Below are positions 34,281 to 36,490 of a stretch of DNA of 64,000 bases, in pieces. The stretch is from Alteromonas sp. (GTDB lineage: Bacteria > Margulisbacteria > Marinamargulisbacteria > UBA6595): contig CAXPTH010000003.1 of NCBI GenBank assembly GCA_964220215.1, positions 70,216 through 134,215 on the forward strand, read 5' to 3'. Every line of letters starts with the position of its first letter. The stretch's first letter is position 1. Position numbers and translations under genes: made by a program. A model generated the notes under the pieces. The model saw nothing but the letters and a program-made list of their open reading frames with translations. It was not told the origin of the DNA and did no database searches.

Positions 34281-34331
34281 AAGTGCCAGTGTACACCAGA
34301 TGGCAACCTGGCGTTAAGCCTAATGCCTTGA

Positions 34332-34360
34332 TTGCACCTAAGCAATCGTTGTATTATTCA
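34332..34360 (+). promoter_or_regulatory. candidate sigma70-type promoter for the small Cys-rich ORF
   Basis: TTGCAC (34332-34337), a 17-nt spacer, then TATTCA (34355-34360). A GGAGG Shine-Dalgarno lies at 34415-34419, before the ATG at 34425. Confidence 0.3.
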
Positions 34361-34424
34361 AAATGTTTTCACACAAGTTATATCAGTATTTTTGAAAAAC
34401 AAAAAGTTCTACATGGAGGTAGTT

Positions 34425-34781
34425 ATGGGTAGTTGGTTAAATTGTTTGCCTTGTTTTAAACAGAATCTACCAACGCATTCGCCTGGTAAACAGTGGTATG
34501 CCGATGGTCCTGACAGCCCCAGAACAGCAGCAAGAAACCGAGCCGCTGAATTGAGCCAAGATGTGAATGCTGAAGATTTGAATAATGCAACCAGCACTAA
34601 GCCTAGCAAGTGTAAACCGCAGTGTTTTCCATGTATACCATTGAATATTTTTTCATGTATATCACGGAATAGTACTAAAACAACCAATCCCTCGACAAAA
34701 AGTGAAGGCCCTGTCGAAGACACCGTGGATAGTAAAGCAAGTACAATGACACCCAGCGATAAACCAGCTGATATATACTGA
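34425..34781 (+). CDS. small Cys-rich hypothetical protein starting MGSWLNCLPC (eukaryote-style lipidation-like N-terminus)
   Basis: The track ORF starts at 34332, but a strong SD (GGAGGT, 34415-34420) sits 5 nt before the ATG at 34425, giving 118 aa. There is no signal peptide, and the sequence is low-complexity and polar with Cys clusters. The TGA stop (34779-34781) is the first three nt of the IS element. Confidence 0.55.
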   Translation: MGSWLNCLPCFKQNLPTHSPGKQWYADGPDSPRTAARNRAAELSQDVNAEDLNNATSTKPSKCKPQCFPCIPLNIFSCISRNSTKTTNPSTKSEGPVEDTVDSKASTMTPSDKPADIY

Positions 34782-34817
34782 CCCCAGTTAAGAACAGGAC
34801 ATAAGAAAGGGAGAAAA
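34779..34817. repeat. IS left terminal inverted repeat
   Basis: Aligned by eye with the reverse complement of 35801-35837: about 28 matching positions of about 37, with one 2-nt indel. Confidence 0.75.
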
Positions 34818-34925
34818 AGCTGCGAGAGCCCAGCTTTTCCCCAATTCCACAGGCGGGCTCAACCACAGAGCCAGCGAGCCTGTGGATATTGTGGTAAAGT
34901 GAGTCAAAAAAAAGGAGAGATTTAA

Positions 34926-35087
34926 ATGAAAAAACGACGATGGAATAGTCAGAAGAAATTAGAAATAGTGATGGTTGGTTTAAGCAAAACGCGATCAATC
35001 AGTGACCTGTGCGCGCATTATGCAATTAGTCAAAGTCAATATTACAAATGGCGAGAACAGTTACTAAGTCGTGGGAATCGAGTCTGA
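34926..35087 (+). pseudogene. IS3-family transposase OrfA fragment (HTH only)
   Basis: An SD (aaggagag) precedes the ATG at 34926. The product is MKKRRWNSQKKLEIVMVGLSKTRSISDLCAHYAISQSQYYKWREQLLSRGNRV* (53 aa). It has the HTH_Tnp_1-like motif, but the leucine-zipper half and the slippery site are missing. Confidence 0.75.
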
Positions 35088-35796
35088 CCATCCATTATGG
35101 GGATACCGTCGTATTTGGGCTTATATGCGGTATCGAGATGGTCGTGTTATTGGTAAAAACCGAGTCTATCGACTGATGAAAGAACATCAACTGTTGGTCA
35201 AGCCCAATACACGATTAAAAGCCAAACGCGGACATTATCGCTCAAAACCAGTGGCTCAAACGCCCAATCAATTATGGGGCATGGACATGACAAAAGTTCG
35301 TTTAAATCAGTGGGGCTGGATCTATGTTCATGTGGTTTTGGACTGGTATACCAAAGAAATTGTAGGCACTTCCGTATCCATAACATCTAAAACCGACGAT
35401 TGGCTCAATGCCTTAAATCACGCCGTTAACACCCGTTTCCCAGATGGTATTCTCGCTGCTAAACATCGTCTTTCTCTGGTTACCGATAACGGATGCCAGC
35501 CAACAGCTCAGCGATTCATGAAATCATGCGCTACGATCGGCATTAAACAAATTTTTACTACATGGAACAACCCAAAAGGGAATGCGGATACTGAACGCGT
35601 ATTTCGTACTCTTAAAGAAGATCTTGTCTGGACCCATGACTGGAATTTGCCATTCGAGTTCCAATCCAGCTTCGATCACTGGGTGTCTCTTTACAATTCC
35701 GATTTTCCTCACCAAGCCTTAAACTACAAAACACCTCAGCAGTTTATGGCTATCGCCACTGCTAATCATACCCCACAATCGGTGCCCATCTTCTAA
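35071..35796 (+). CDS. IS3-family transposase OrfB (rve/DDE core), N-terminally truncated
   Basis: Motifs HPLWGYRRIWAYMR...NRVYRLMKEHQL, with the DDE triad in WGMDMTKV, LVTDNGCQ and NPKGNADTERVFRTLKEDL. Confidence 0.85.
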   Translation: MGIESDHPLWGYRRIWAYMRYRDGRVIGKNRVYRLMKEHQLLVKPNTRLKAKRGHYRSKPVAQTPNQLWGMDMTKVRLNQWGWIYVHVVLDWYTKEIVGTSVSITSKTDDWLNALNHAVNTRFPDGILAAKHRLSLVTDNGCQPTAQRFMKSCATIGIKQIFTTWNNPKGNADTERVFRTLKEDLVWTHDWNLPFEFQSSFDHWVSLYNSDFPHQALNYKTPQQFMAIATANHTPQSVPIF

Positions 35797-35799
35797 ACT

Positions 35800-36267
35800 T
35801 TATTCTCCCTTTCTTTTCCTTGACTTAACCGGAGGCATTACAGCCAATGTCCACCCATACTCACTCACGGCTTCAATCGCTTCCACAACTTTGTTAGGTC
35901 TAACCAATACTGTTAGCTCGATCTGAGAATTAATTGAAATAATTTCATCATCAGACAGAATTGTATTGCCCAGAAATAACCGTTGTTGTTCAACTGGAAT
36001 CTTAATTGCCTCTCGAATTTTTATTTTTAAATTCCACACATTATTATCACCAGGCGTAACTTGTATACTAGTAGGTTTTCCACTTAATTTATAAATAGTA
36101 ATAGCGAGACTTTGTCCTGACCTTGACGATGACGCTGAACCTGACCTTGGCGGTGGTGAAAACGATGCTGATTGTTTAGTAGACAGATCTGACGATGATA
36201 CTGCTGGTTGTGCTGCTGCTCGCGTTTTGAGATTGAAGATTCGTTGTATTGCTGATTGAATAGCCAT
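35800..36267 (-). CDS. ubiquitin-fold (eukaryote-type beta-grasp) domain protein with Ser-rich N-terminus; native 3' end replaced by the IS
   Basis: Residues ~55-125, LAITIYKLSGKPTSIQVTPGDNNVWNLKIKIREAIKIPVEQQRLFLGNTILSDDEIISINSQIELTVLVR, align by eye with ubiquitin ([72 protein letters not shown]). An SD-like aggggg lies upstream of the ATG at 36267. There is no C-terminal GG. Confidence 0.7.
   Translation of the reverse strand: MAIQSAIQRIFNLKTRAAAQPAVSSSDLSTKQSASFSPPPRSGSASSSRSGQSLAITIYKLSGKPTSIQVTPGDNNVWNLKIKIREAIKIPVEQQRLFLGNTILSDDEIISINSQIELTVLVRPNKVVEAIEAVSEYGWTLAVMPPVKSRKRKGE
35801..35837. repeat. IS right terminal inverted repeat
   Basis: See the left IR. This segment also encodes, on the minus strand, the last ~12 codons (MPPVKSRKRKGE*) of the ubiquitin-fold ORF. 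Confidence 0.75.
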
Positions 36268-36490
36268 AACCTACCCCCTTTTTTTAATTAAAAAATAAAA
36301 AATTTTTAAATATTTACTGTTAAAAATAATAAAAATAAATTTTAATAATGAATTTAAAATAAATATACCCTGTTGTCAATCCGGATTTGAATCAGTTGCG
36401 GCCAAGAACTCTCAGACACCCTGTCAAAATGGTACAGAGTGCTTAAGCAGCTTGTTTTTTATGATCGTTAGGCTTTGGTATACTATTTGT

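What the first reader, a model, noticed from the sequence alone, without database searches (positions are those of the whole stretch)
34281..36490. AT-rich accessory islet wedged between thiG and menC carrying eukaryote-like genes and an IS
Conserved metabolic genes flank a 2.2-kb segment: thiG starts at 34280 on the minus strand and menC starts at 36491 on the plus strand. The segment holds only three things. One is a small Cys-rich ORF that starts MGSWLNCLPC behind a strong SD. The second is a crippled IS3-family element. The third is a ubiquitin-fold ORF. The segment is visibly more AT-rich than its neighbours, and it ends in a ~90-bp stretch (36280-36370) that is almost pure A/T. Position, composition and content all look like a horizontally acquired effector-type islet rather than core genome.
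Basis: partly seen in the sequence, partly recalled or inferred. Interest (0 to 1): 0.75.

Follow-up and report, generated by a model that had tools for sequence, protein, structure and literature searches.

The report
IS-truncated remnant of ubiquitin-like repeat-gene array
The AT-rich 2.2-kb stretch between thiG and menC is what a broken insertion sequence left of a much larger, strain-variable array of genes for "ubiquitin-like domain + DUF4116 repeat" proteins in a marine Margulisbacteria genome; the locus itself is decayed, but it exposes an undescribed eukaryote-like gene family.

Summary
The interval 34281-36490 has 40.6% GC against 46.3% for the window. It contains a small Cys-rich ORF, a defective IS3-family element, a ubiquitin-fold ORF and a 110-bp stretch of 14.5% GC.

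It is not a self-contained acquired islet.

- **Cys-rich gene:** it is a conserved, fast-evolving neighbour of thiG in relatives.
- **IS (34774-35842):** it lacks 194 bp that intact copies have, and it has no target duplication. Homology to IS-free sister strains stops at or within 3 nt of each of its ends.
- **"Ubiquitin ORF":** it is the first 141 codons of a 738-aa gene (ubiquitin-like domain plus about 17 DUF4116 repeats) that is intact in a sister strain. Its last 13-14 codons and its stop come from the IS.
- **A/T stretch:** it is a promoter plus unstructured leader cassette, nearly identical upstream of at least six family members.

Sister strains (98.5-99% identical) carry large DUF4116 genes at four sites where this window has only remnants or nothing.

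The organism is a Candidatus Marinamargulisbacteria bacterium. The function of the family is unknown. I infer, with low confidence, protein-binding, possibly host-directed, solenoid proteins. Interest is moderate.

The parts
33486..34280 (-). thiG (left flank, core gene)
   Evidence: Pfam ThiG 349 bits. It differs from the sister strain by 8 synonymous and 0 non-synonymous codons.
34281..34424 (.). Conserved divergent intergenic region between thiG and the Cys-rich gene, including the GGAGG Shine-Dalgarno at 34413-34417
   Evidence: Nearly identical in L002 and largely conserved in the 90%-identity relative L035. A sigma-70-like site lies at 34328-34357 (+).
34425..34781 (+). Small Cys-rich protein gene (118 aa; invariant CxxC at C7/C10 and C63). 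The native sequence ends at 34773. The last two codons and the stop (IY*) come from the IS left end and replace the native ...DDICI*.
   Evidence: Homologues at 55-60% identity (alignment A2). It lies next to thiG in L002, L026, L027 and L035. The sense frame is the only one open in all three genomes and indels are in frame. Changes are mostly non-synonymous: 7:1 and 30:4. No Pfam or NCBIfam hit.
34774..35842 (+). Defective IS3-family insertion sequence (1069 bp; intact copies about 1263 bp). It has imperfect terminal inverted repeats of about 45 nt (TATACTGACCCCAGTTAAG... / ...CTTAACCGGAGGCATTACA). There is no target-site duplication.
   Evidence: Ends were defined against copies with three different left flanks and three different right flanks. 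NCBIfam IS3 175 bits against a cut-off of 160. It is the only copy in the window. Flanks are ...GCTGATA | IS | GCCAATG....
34926..35087 (+). orfA remnant (53 aa, HTH_Tnp_1). Intact orfA is 95 aa.
   Evidence: Pfam; gene tables of intact copies.
35081..35085 (+). Junction of the 194-bp internal deletion (microhomology AGTCT). The deletion removed the orfA C-terminus, the A8 slippery run and the orfB N-terminus.
   Evidence: BLAST against intact copies L029-L034 and the printed junction. Intact OrfB is 265 aa (P0021).
35071..35796 (+). orfB remnant (241 aa; HTH_21, rve, rve_3). It sits in the +1 frame relative to orfA, not the -1 frame.
   Evidence: Pfam; coordinates.
35800..36267 (-). Truncated Ubl-DUF4116 gene. 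Codons 1-141 (35843-36267) are native. The last 13-14 codons (VMPPVKSRKRKGE) and the stop are IS right-end sequence.
   Evidence: Homology to the 738-aa orthologue in sister strain L021 (5309-7525) begins at 35843, the first base after the IS. P0002 is a Ubl+DUF4116 fusion at 56% identity.
35896..36111 (-). Ubiquitin-like (beta-grasp) domain, residues 53-124. It has no C-terminal Gly-Gly (...LVRPNK).
   Evidence: BLASTP to ubiquitin 34% identity, E 9e-10. PDB phmmer gives single-ubiquitin chains at E about 3e-6. AF2 pLDDT 84.7. Foldseek top hits are all ubiquitin. Pfam ubiquitin scores 22.4 bits, below the gathering score of 25.4, here; paralogues score 37.5 and 44.8 bits.
36268..36385 (-). 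Family-wide promoter and leader cassette: -35 TTGACA (36379-36374), 17 nt, -10 TAAATT (36356-36351), about 80 nt of almost pure A/T leader, then the SD AAGGGGG (G5 tract)
   Evidence: The cassette is nearly identical (mostly 95% or more; 92-98% by BLAST) upstream of six family genes with four different N-termini (alignment A4; copies listed). Promoter scan 10/12. Leader RNA is unstructured, z = -0.46. No Rfam family.
36491..37561 (+). menC (right flank, core gene)
   Evidence: Pfam MenC_N plus MR_MLE_C. 99% identical protein in sister-strain contigs.
29691..29843 (-). Second DUF4116 remnant (about 1.5 repeats with an in-frame stop). The sister strain has 346-aa and 328-aa DUF4116 genes here.
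   Evidence: tblastn of repeat consensus; L026 comparison.
58096..58245 (-). Third DUF4116 remnant (3' end only). The sister strain has a tandem array of three Ubl-DUF4116 genes here (169, 351 and 426 aa).
   Evidence: tblastn; L011 comparison.

Best explanation
The interval is a decayed junction in a recombination hot spot of a Candidatus Marinamargulisbacteria genome. It is not an acquired island.

**Shown**
1. A lineage-specific small Cys-rich protein gene sits divergently next to thiG, as it does in relatives.
2. Upstream of menC, closely related strains carry one to several large genes of a DUF4116-repeat family. Some of these have an N-terminal ubiquitin-like domain. Each gene sits behind a near-identical promoter plus A/T-leader cassette.
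3. In this strain an IS3-family copy lies between the two. Homology to IS-free relatives stops at the IS end on the right and within 3 nt of it on the left. There is no target duplication. The two flanking ORFs converge on the IS and both borrow their stop codons from it.

**Inferred**
- The IS inserted into the Ubl-DUF4116 gene. The region between that site and the last four codons of the Cys-rich gene was then lost, either through an IS-mediated adjacent deletion or through recombination between two IS copies. At least 12 kb was lost if the sister-strain arrangement is collinear.
- A 691-aa family gene that sits next to menC in the sister strain is absent here. The boundaries fit recombination between two leader cassettes.
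- The IS later lost 194 bp, including its frameshift site, and is immobile on its own.
- What remains of the family gene is a 141-codon fragment with an intact promoter. It is most likely a pseudogene.

**Family function (inference only, low confidence):** alpha-solenoid protein-binding proteins with a non-conjugatable ubiquitin-like head. They diversify through repeat-number change and recombination between copies, which fits an interaction with a changing partner such as a eukaryotic host or grazer.
For: **Organism**
- Rho and PurB clusters at 90% identity or more are named Candidatus Marinamargulisbacteria.

**IS**
- Ends, internal deletion and absence of a target duplication.
- IS3 family membership.
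- Intact OrfA is 95 aa and intact OrfB 265 aa.

**Break of homology at the IS ends**
- L002, L026 and L027 align to the window up to 34776.
- L021 and L022 align from 35843.

**Native gene ends in relatives**
- The Cys-rich ORF ends ...DDICI*.
- The full-length 738-aa Ubl plus 17 matched DUF4116 stretches.

**The join is real**
- Independent assemblies cover it. L004 spans 32568-35760, L009 spans 34738-46267 and L010 spans 34907-36533. All carry the deleted IS variant.

**Leader cassette**
-.

**Other DUF4116 sites are also reduced to remnants or emptied in this window**
-.

**Variability upstream of menC**
- 691-aa and 356-aa alleles, and unrelated cargo in L023.
- Giant genes of 1579-1622 aa in relatives at 92-94% identity.

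**Ubiquitin fold**
-.

**DUF4116 modelled as an alpha-solenoid**
- PMC8078820.
Against: - No single contig of an IS-free sister strain links the thiG side (L002/L026) to the menC side (L021/L022). The size of the loss is therefore unknown, as is whether thiG and menC were on the same side of the array beforehand.
- In a 94%-identical relative the DUF4116 gene is followed by menA, not thiG. The junction could therefore come from a larger rearrangement rather than a simple deletion.
- The direction of the 691-aa gene difference (loss here or gain there) is not determined.
- The 155-aa ORF keeps its promoter, SD and an open frame, so it could still make a stand-alone Ubl protein.
- Nothing here tests secretion, a host or a binding partner. 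Pelagic Marinamargulisbacteria are not known to be host-associated. Only Ca. Ruthmannia eludens is (PMC6784892).
Confidence: 0.8

Rival explanations
1. One reading: the 2.2 kb is a horizontally acquired effector islet, inserted as a unit between two core genes.
For: - Low GC (40.6%) and very low GC3 of the Cys-rich ORF and the Ubl ORF.
- A mobile element is present.
- A eukaryote-type ubiquitin domain is present.
- The content differs between strains.
Against: - There is no integrase, tRNA or flanking repeat.
- The Cys-rich gene is linked to thiG in relatives as far as 55-60% protein identity.
- The Ubl gene is a fragment of a multi-copy endogenous family. The orthologue in the sister strain is 738 aa.
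- The IS shows the signs of deletion, not of cargo delivery.
- The DUF4116 repeats of the family have normal composition.
- Much of the low GC comes from intergenic and leader sequence.
Confidence: 0.07
2. The truncated 155-aa ORF is a working stand-alone ubiquitin-like protein: a neo-functionalised fragment expressed from the intact family promoter.
For: - The promoter, leader, SD and an open frame are all intact.
- The same ORF, with one substitution, is in the MAG and several read sets.
- The Ubl domain is complete and models well.
Against: - The C-terminal helix is the cut-off start of a DUF4116 repeat, followed by 13-14 IS-encoded residues.
- No relative has such a short form with its own stop. 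The short P0002-type proteins keep two or more repeats.
- The other family sites in this window are also remnants or empty, which suggests general loss.
Confidence: 0.1
3. The junction is an assembly artefact: two unrelated loci joined through a multi-copy IS.
For: - The IS is multi-copy in the population. Contig L001 breaks inside it.
- Some related contigs look like hybrids between IS copies.
Against: - The rare 194-bp-deleted IS variant is attached to the thiG side (L004 has the 53-aa orfA) and to the menC side (L009, L010).
- L009 runs through the whole IS into the Cys-rich ORF.
- These contigs come from separate assemblies and are 99.9-100% identical to the window.
Confidence: 0.03
4. The ubiquitin-fold ORF is ThiS, the beta-grasp sulfur carrier of the thiGH pathway, and so belongs to the core thiamine operon.
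For: It sits near thiG and thiH, and ThiS has the same fold (general knowledge of the ThiS/ThiF/ThiG pathway).
Against: - Its best matches are ubiquitin itself, both in sequence and in structure.
- There is no C-terminal Gly-Gly.
- It is on the far side of an IS.
- Its orthologue continues into 17 matched DUF4116 stretches.
- Pfam gave only the ubiquitin family.
Confidence: 0.01

Closest known systems
IS3-family insertion sequences (two-ORF, frameshift-dependent DDE transposase) and IS-mediated adjacent deletion
   Same: - rve DDE domain; NCBIfam IS3 above its cut-off.
- Intact relatives have overlapping orfA (95 aa) and orfB (265 aa) with an A8 slippery run, and terminal inverted repeats whose 3' end is ...CA.
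- A junction without a target duplication that joins two truncated genes is the classic footprint of IS-mediated deletion or inter-copy recombination.
   Different: - This copy lacks 194 bp, including the frameshift window, so it cannot make OrfAB.
- Its left end starts TA rather than TG.
- The subgroup within IS3 was not determined.
BfUbb, the ubiquitin homologue of Bacteroides fragilis (PMC3352274, PMC5705921, PMC11467351)
   Same: A bacterial gene for a eukaryote-type ubiquitin fold that cannot be conjugated in the normal way. It has atypical composition and is thought to come from inter-kingdom transfer.
   Different: - BfUbb is a free, secreted protein of about 76 residues, 63% identical to ubiquitin, and it acts as an antibacterial toxin.
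- Here the domain is only about 34% identical, has no signal peptide, and is the head of a long DUF4116 repeat protein in a multi-gene family.
Eukaryotic ubiquitin-domain proteins (type-2 Ubl proteins such as UBL4A or Rad23)
   Same: An N-terminal, non-cleavable Ubl domain fused to another module. UBL4A (2dzi) is among the PDB sequence hits.
   Different: The partner module (DUF4116 repeats) and the bacterial setting. None of the 148 best ubiquitin-like representatives, apart from this family's own two members (P0001, P0002), carries DUF4116 repeats.
DUF4116 (PF13475) repeat proteins
   Same: The orthologue and its neighbours score 300-1037 bits with 6-19 matched stretches. The family has been modelled as an alpha-solenoid (PMC8078820).
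   Different: - Fusion to a Ubl domain was found in only four other protein clusters among 5.8 billion, all from environmental sequence data, one of them a Tara Oceans contig.
- The window itself keeps only the first half-repeat.
Bacterial multigene families with a conserved 5' expression cassette and variable repetitive coding region (for example Mycoplasma vlp/vsa-type surface-protein families; from general knowledge)
   Same: - A near-identical promoter and leader in front of diverged, internally repetitive genes.
- Copy number and repeat number differ between near-identical strains.
- A homopolymer tract at the ribosome-binding site differs in length between strains (G5 against G9).
   Different: - There is no signal peptide or lipobox, and no evidence of surface exposure.
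- There is no evidence of on/off switching within a population.
- This is a resemblance only, not membership.

Membership tests
IS3 family insertion sequence | DDE (rve) transposase that matches the family model above its curated cut-off | tested here: met
   NCBIfam NF033516 scores 175.2 bits against a cut-off of 160. Pfam rve scores 68.7 bits.
IS3 family insertion sequence | Two overlapping ORFs joined by programmed -1 frameshifting on a slippery run | tested here: not met
   Intact relatives have orfA of 95 aa overlapping orfB of 265 aa, with an A8 run. The window copy has lost that 194-bp segment, and orfB is in the +1 frame. It is therefore a defective member.
IS3 family insertion sequence | Terminal inverted repeats (typically 5'-TG...CA-3') | tested here: met
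   Imperfect inverted repeats of about 45 nt. The right end is ...TTACA. The left end is TATAC..., not TG.
IS3 family insertion sequence | Short target-site duplication flanking the copy | tested here: not met
   The flanks are GATA and GCCA. I read this as a secondary deletion or recombination.
Ubiquitin family (PF00240), beta-grasp fold | Sequence match above Pfam's gathering score | tested here: inconclusive
   The window ORF scores 22.4 bits against a gathering score of 25.4. Paralogues score 37.5 and 44.8 bits. BLASTP to ubiquitin gives E 9e-10.
Ubiquitin family (PF00240), beta-grasp fold | beta-beta-alpha-beta-beta...beta grasp structure | tested here: met
   AF2 pLDDT 84.7. Foldseek top 50 hits are almost all ubiquitin, with TM 0.80-0.86 and rmsd about 1.5 A.
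Conjugatable ubiquitin-like modifier | C-terminal Gly-Gly exposed or exposable for activation | tested here: not met
   The domain ends ...LVRPNK and continues into a repeat helix.
DUF4116 (PF13475) repeat protein | Tandem repeats that match PF13475 | tested here: not met
   The window ORF keeps only the first about 17 residues of repeat 1 and gives no Pfam hit. The orthologue in L021 has 17 matched stretches and scores 912 bits.
Genomic island (integrative element) | Integrase or recombinase, tRNA or other attachment site, flanking direct repeats | tested here: not met
   None was found in 34200-36600.
Genomic island (integrative element) | Atypical composition and absence from close relatives | tested here: inconclusive
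   Composition is atypical and the content is variable. Relatives have more DNA there, not less, and part of the content (the Cys-rich gene) is conserved.
ThiS sulfur carrier | Protein of about 66 aa ending in Gly-Gly that matches ThiS models | tested here: not met
   Pfam reported only the ubiquitin family and there is no GG end.
Secreted effector of a host-associated bacterium | Secretion signal or system, translocation into host cells | not testable with these tools
   No Sec signal is evident in the N-termini. No secretion assay or host is known.

The most novel reading that the evidence does not exclude
Ubl-DUF4116 proteins may be a so-far undescribed family of eukaryote-like proteins in Marinamargulisbacteria, built as a ubiquitin mimic on a solenoid scaffold.

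- They are expressed from a shared promoter and leader cassette that also serves as a recombination handle.
- The family expands, shuffles and collapses between strains that are 98-99% identical.
- This would point to an ongoing arms race with a eukaryotic host or grazer. It would imply that free-living-looking pelagic members of this candidate phylum interact closely with eukaryotic cells.
- The compositional split within single genes (Ubl head GC3 about 0.2, repeats about 0.5) would mark the head plus leader as a module acquired from outside.
Probability: 0.2. Interest if true: 0.7.

Novelty: new variant of a known kind. Interest (0 to 1): 0.42.

Why it matters
The locus in the window is ordinary genome decay: a dead IS and a gene stump. 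Following it up gave three results.

[quoted passage not shown] Here a Ubl domain heads a multi-copy DUF4116 repeat family in a candidate phylum known almost only from sequence. One member of that phylum is an intracellular animal symbiont.
- **A clean natural example of family turnover.** Strains about 99% identical differ by tens of kilobases of these genes at four sites within 64 kb. The mechanisms are visible: IS-linked deletion, recombination between leader cassettes, and in-frame repeat contraction.
- **A caution for island calling.** Low GC plus an IS plus a eukaryote-like domain looked like an acquired islet, but it is the residue of a larger endogenous array.

Tried and rejected
- **MenC scan of GTDB species genomes.** It found only one distant relative at 23% identity, so no reference genome gave synteny. 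Metagenome contigs had to be used instead.
- **Exact look-up of the window's 155-aa ORF.** It is not on record. The 99%-identical P0001 was used instead.
- **First AF2 model.** With three sequences it reached pLDDT 44 and was discarded.
- **Structured RNA or riboswitch in the A/T stretch.** No Rfam family was found. A sub-threshold U4 hit (27 against 46 bits) was taken as an A/U-composition artefact. The leader does not fold better than shuffles.
- **tRNA or attachment site in the interval.** None found.
- **Antisense ORF opposite the Cys-rich gene.** One gene caller called it as 124 aa in L002. I rejected it because it is open for only 83 codons in L035, while the sense frame, its SD and its ATG are conserved.
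- **N-myristoylation reading of MG...** I considered MGSWLNC as a eukaryote-type motif. Gly2 is not invariant (Val in P0066), while C7 and C10 (CxxC) are. It is left as an unproven idea.
- **L038 119-aa ORF as the Cys-rich gene.** It is not.
- **Viral contigs.** No relative of the Ubl module was found.
- **DUF4116 among the best 148 ubiquitin-like representatives.** None found.
- **Papers for the MAG and run accessions.** None found.
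Full report
**1. What is there**

- thiG is at 33486-34280 (-), with 349 bits to Pfam ThiG.
- menC runs from ATG 36491 (+).
- Between them lie three ORF-bearing items:
  - a 118-aa ORF at 34425-34781 (+) that starts MGSWLNCLPC behind GGAGG;
  - transposase fragments at 34926-35087 (HTH_Tnp_1) and 35071-35796 (HTH_21, rve, rve_3);
  - a 155-aa ORF at 35800-36267 (-) with a sub-threshold ubiquitin hit (22.4 bits; gathering score 25.4).

The interval is 40.6% GC against 46.3% for the window. 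That places it in the lowest 0.2% of same-size windows, with z = -2.15, although a region near 11.9 kb is as low. The stretch 36276-36385 is 14.5% GC. GC3 is 0.33 for the Cys ORF and 0.26 for the Ubl ORF, against 0.47 +/- 0.04 for 48 window genes. The IS orfB is ordinary at 0.43.

**2. Organism and source**

- Exact-sequence look-ups place the window's proteins in MAG GCA_041240485.1, in several SRA assemblies and on a 136.7-kb NCBI contig.
- Clusters at 90% identity or more for Rho and PurB carry the name Candidatus Marinamargulisbacteria bacterium.
- This group is known almost only from sequence. One member, Ca. Ruthmannia eludens, is an intracellular symbiont of Trichoplax (PMC6784892).
- The window encodes full purine and histidine-type biosynthesis. 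It is not an obviously reduced genome.

**3. The IS**

Six contigs carry intact copies at 98.7-99% identity, with three different left flanks and three different right flanks. These fix the ends at 34774 (TATACTGACCCCAGTTAAG...) and 35842 (...CTTAACCGGAGGCATTACA).
- Intact copies have 194 more base pairs. These hold the orfA C-terminus, an A8 slippery run and the orfB N-terminus. Intact OrfA is 95 aa and intact OrfB 265 aa.
- The window copy joins ...GGGAATCGAGTCT to GACCATCC... across an AGTCT microhomology.
- OrfB matches NCBIfam IS3 above its cut-off.
- The copy has no target duplication (flanks GATA and GCCA) and is the only copy in the window.

"Crippled IS3-family element" is correct.

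**4. Both neighbouring ORFs end inside the IS**

*Left side.* Contigs of IS-free sister strains (L002, L026, L027; 98.6-98.9% identical across thiH-thiG) align to the window only up to 34776. There the Cys-rich ORF ends ...DKPADDICI*, whereas the window reads ...DKPAD-IY* using IS bases.

*Right side.* Sister-strain contigs L021 and L022 (98.5-98.9% identical across menC and downstream) align from 35843, the first base after the IS. There the orthologue is a 738-aa protein. Its first 130 or so residues match the window ORF, and it continues into 17 matched DUF4116 stretches (912 bits). The window ORF stops being native after ...EYGWTLA, inside the first repeat. It ends with VMPPVKSRKRKGE* read from the IS inverted repeat.

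*The join is real.* Separate assemblies carry the rare deleted IS variant attached to the thiG side (L004) and to the menC side (L009, L010). L009 crosses the whole IS.

**5. What relatives have in this place**

- *thiG side.* After the Cys-rich gene come convergent DUF4116 genes of 237 aa and at least 249 aa.
- *menC side, sister strain.* There is an array of 691 aa, 738 aa (Ubl type), a small family-gene fragment, an IS5-like transposase fragment, 857 aa, and a 213-aa stump of a different N-terminal domain.
- *Other variants.*
  - One contig has a 356-aa in-frame contracted allele of the 691-aa gene (L024).
  - Another has unrelated cargo at 31.5% GC plus a DUF4116 fragment (L023).
- *Relatives at 92-94% identity.* They have a single giant DUF4116 gene (1579-1622 aa, with an unassigned N-terminal region ahead of the repeats). 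In the 164-kb contig L036 this is followed by menA, a methyltransferase and a hydrolase, not thiG.
- *L035 (90-95% identity).* The Cys-rich gene is followed by an aminotransferase gene.

The position upstream of menC is therefore always occupied by DUF4116 genes of changing form. The thiG-menC adjacency of the window is not general.

Relative to L021, the window also lacks the 691-aa gene. The boundaries fall in the two copies of the leader cassette, which fits recombination between them. The direction of that change was not established.

**6. The A/T stretch is a family cassette**

The 110 bp at 36276-36385 recur upstream of other family genes at 97-98% identity (L011, twice) and 92-95% (L021). 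An alignment of seven upstream regions gives the following picture.
- In six of them, TCCGGATTGACAAC...TAAATT is followed by about 80 nt of A/T and then AAGGGG and ATG.
- This block is almost invariant in those six, although the genes start MAIQS, MNNLS, MTGLV or MTPPV.
- The TTGACA-17-TAAATT pair scores 10/12 in the promoter scan.

The leader does not fold better than shuffled sequence (z = -0.46) and matches no Rfam family. I read it as a strong promoter with an unstructured A/U-rich leader, duplicated together with the genes. That reading is an inference. The G-run at the SD is G5 in this strain and G9 in the sister strain.

**7. The Ubl domain**

- Residues 53-124 are 34% identical to ubiquitin (E 9e-10).
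- They hit single-ubiquitin PDB chains at E about 3e-6.
- They find 1110 proteins in the 1.84-billion representative library. The best are polyubiquitin-like, and none of the best 148 apart from the family's own members carries DUF4116.
- With a 17-sequence alignment AF2 gives pLDDT 84.7. Foldseek returns ubiquitin throughout (TM 0.80-0.86, rmsd about 1.5 A).
- There is no Gly-Gly end, so it is a built-in Ubl domain, not a modifier.
- Ubl-DUF4116 fusions were found in only four other clusters, all from environmental sequence data (P0002, P0216, P0217 and the Tara Oceans protein P0218). No relative was found in viral contigs.
- Within single family genes the head (N-terminus plus Ubl) has GC3 0.17-0.26, while the repeats have 0.50-0.59. 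This is the best evidence that the head module has a foreign origin.

**8. The Cys-rich protein**

- Five further clusters are 55-60% identical. C7, C10 (a CxxC motif), C63 and two long motifs are invariant, and three homologues end in -ICI.
- The gene sits next to thiG wherever the context is known.
- The sense frame alone is open in all three genomes compared, and indels are in frame.
- Substitutions are mostly non-synonymous: 7:1 and 30:4. For thiG the ratios are 0:8 and 11:28.
- It is a real, fast-evolving, lineage-restricted gene of unknown role, with no Pfam or NCBIfam match. It is not part of an acquired block.

**9. A wider pattern**

The window contains only three DUF4116 traces: the stump at 35843-35900, a fragment with an in-frame stop at 29691-29843, and a 3' end at 58096-58245. 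At the matching sites sister strains carry genes of 328 and 346 aa (L026), and a tandem array of 169, 351 and 426 aa (L011). The 328-aa gene's site (about 29015-29067) keeps no trace at all. This strain has lost the family at every site covered by the window.

**10. Verdict**

*Shown:*
- the anatomy of the interval;
- the defective IS;
- the truncation of both flanking ORFs by it;
- the full-length orthologue;
- the shared cassette;
- the ubiquitin fold;
- the strain-level variability.

*Inferred:*
- the order of events (insertion, deletion or inter-copy recombination, then internal IS deletion);
- pseudogene status of the stump;
- a protein-binding, possibly host-directed role of the family, based on a ubiquitin-like head, an alpha-solenoid repeat body (PMC8078820) and rapid turnover.

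The nearest described case of a bacterial ubiquitin homologue is BfUbb of Bacteroides fragilis (PMC3352274, PMC5705921). BfUbb differs in being a free secreted toxin.

Noticed in passing
window 29691-29843 (-) and about 29015-29067: A DUF4116 pseudogene fragment (about 1.5 repeats, with an in-frame stop). Sister-strain contig L026 has a 346-aa DUF4116 gene here and a further 328-aa one between recO and the 151-aa gene. Both are absent from the window.
   Followed up: partly
window 58096-58245 (-), overlapping the 3' end of the hexapeptide-transferase gene 57560-58135; L011 1-5500: Only the last 1.3 or so DUF4116 repeats remain, next to a tRNA gene. The sister strain has a segmental triplication here: three Ubl-DUF4116 genes (169, 351 and 426 aa), each followed by a partial copy of the hexapeptide-transferase gene.
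   Followed up: partly
window 36272-36276; L021 about 7530-7540: The G-run that forms the ribosome-binding site of the Ubl gene is G5 in this strain and G9 in the sister strain. Other family members have GGGA or GGAG. It may be a slippage-prone tract that alters translation. Within-sample variation was not examined.
   Followed up: no
L023 1-2290 (Ga0181568_10086515): In another strain the DNA upstream of menC is unrelated and 31.5% GC. It holds a DeoR-type HTH protein, a 293-aa DUF3892/DUF1402-like protein, a 232-aa protein with a hydrophobic N-terminal half, and a DUF4116 fragment. This looks more like truly foreign cargo than anything in the window.
   Followed up: no
L036 14379-19247; L038 10376-15115; L021 584-1225: Relatives at 92-94% identity carry giant DUF4116 proteins (1579-1622 aa). 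The first 474 residues have no Pfam or NCBIfam match; the gene table lists a faint Viral_helicase1 hit for the whole protein. In L036 the gene lies between menC and menA. L021 keeps a 213-aa stump of the same N-terminal region.
   Followed up: partly
L021 5309-5345: The 738-aa orthologue does not end in a normal repeat terminus. It reads through a copy of the A/T leader cassette (C-terminus ...FILNSLLKFIFIIFNSKYLRTFYFLIKKRSAL). Its own 3' end was therefore replaced by recombination with the next cassette.
   Followed up: no
window 8437-10508 (+): Two adjacent genes give weak, sub-threshold matches to PorU-like sortase and PorV/PorQ family models (type IX secretion) in a Margulisbacteria genome.
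   Followed up: no
window 32414-34424: thiG and thiH overlap and are followed by a 5-formyltetrahydrofolate cyclo-ligase gene. No thiS-like ORF (about 66 aa ending in GG) is seen upstream of thiG, and no TPP riboswitch was detected in the window.
   Followed up: partly
window about 11881-14090: A second 2.2-kb stretch is as AT-rich as the islet (40.45% GC). It covers a 684-aa lytic-transglycosylase-like gene with tetratricopeptide-like matches.
   Followed up: no
L029-L034: Intact copies of the same IS sit between an NYN-domain gene and a PEMT-family gene in the salt-marsh population. Some contigs combine the left flank of one copy with the right flank of another; for example, AAT flanks pair between L034 and L031. 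This suggests either assembly hybrids or real recombination between copies.
   Followed up: no
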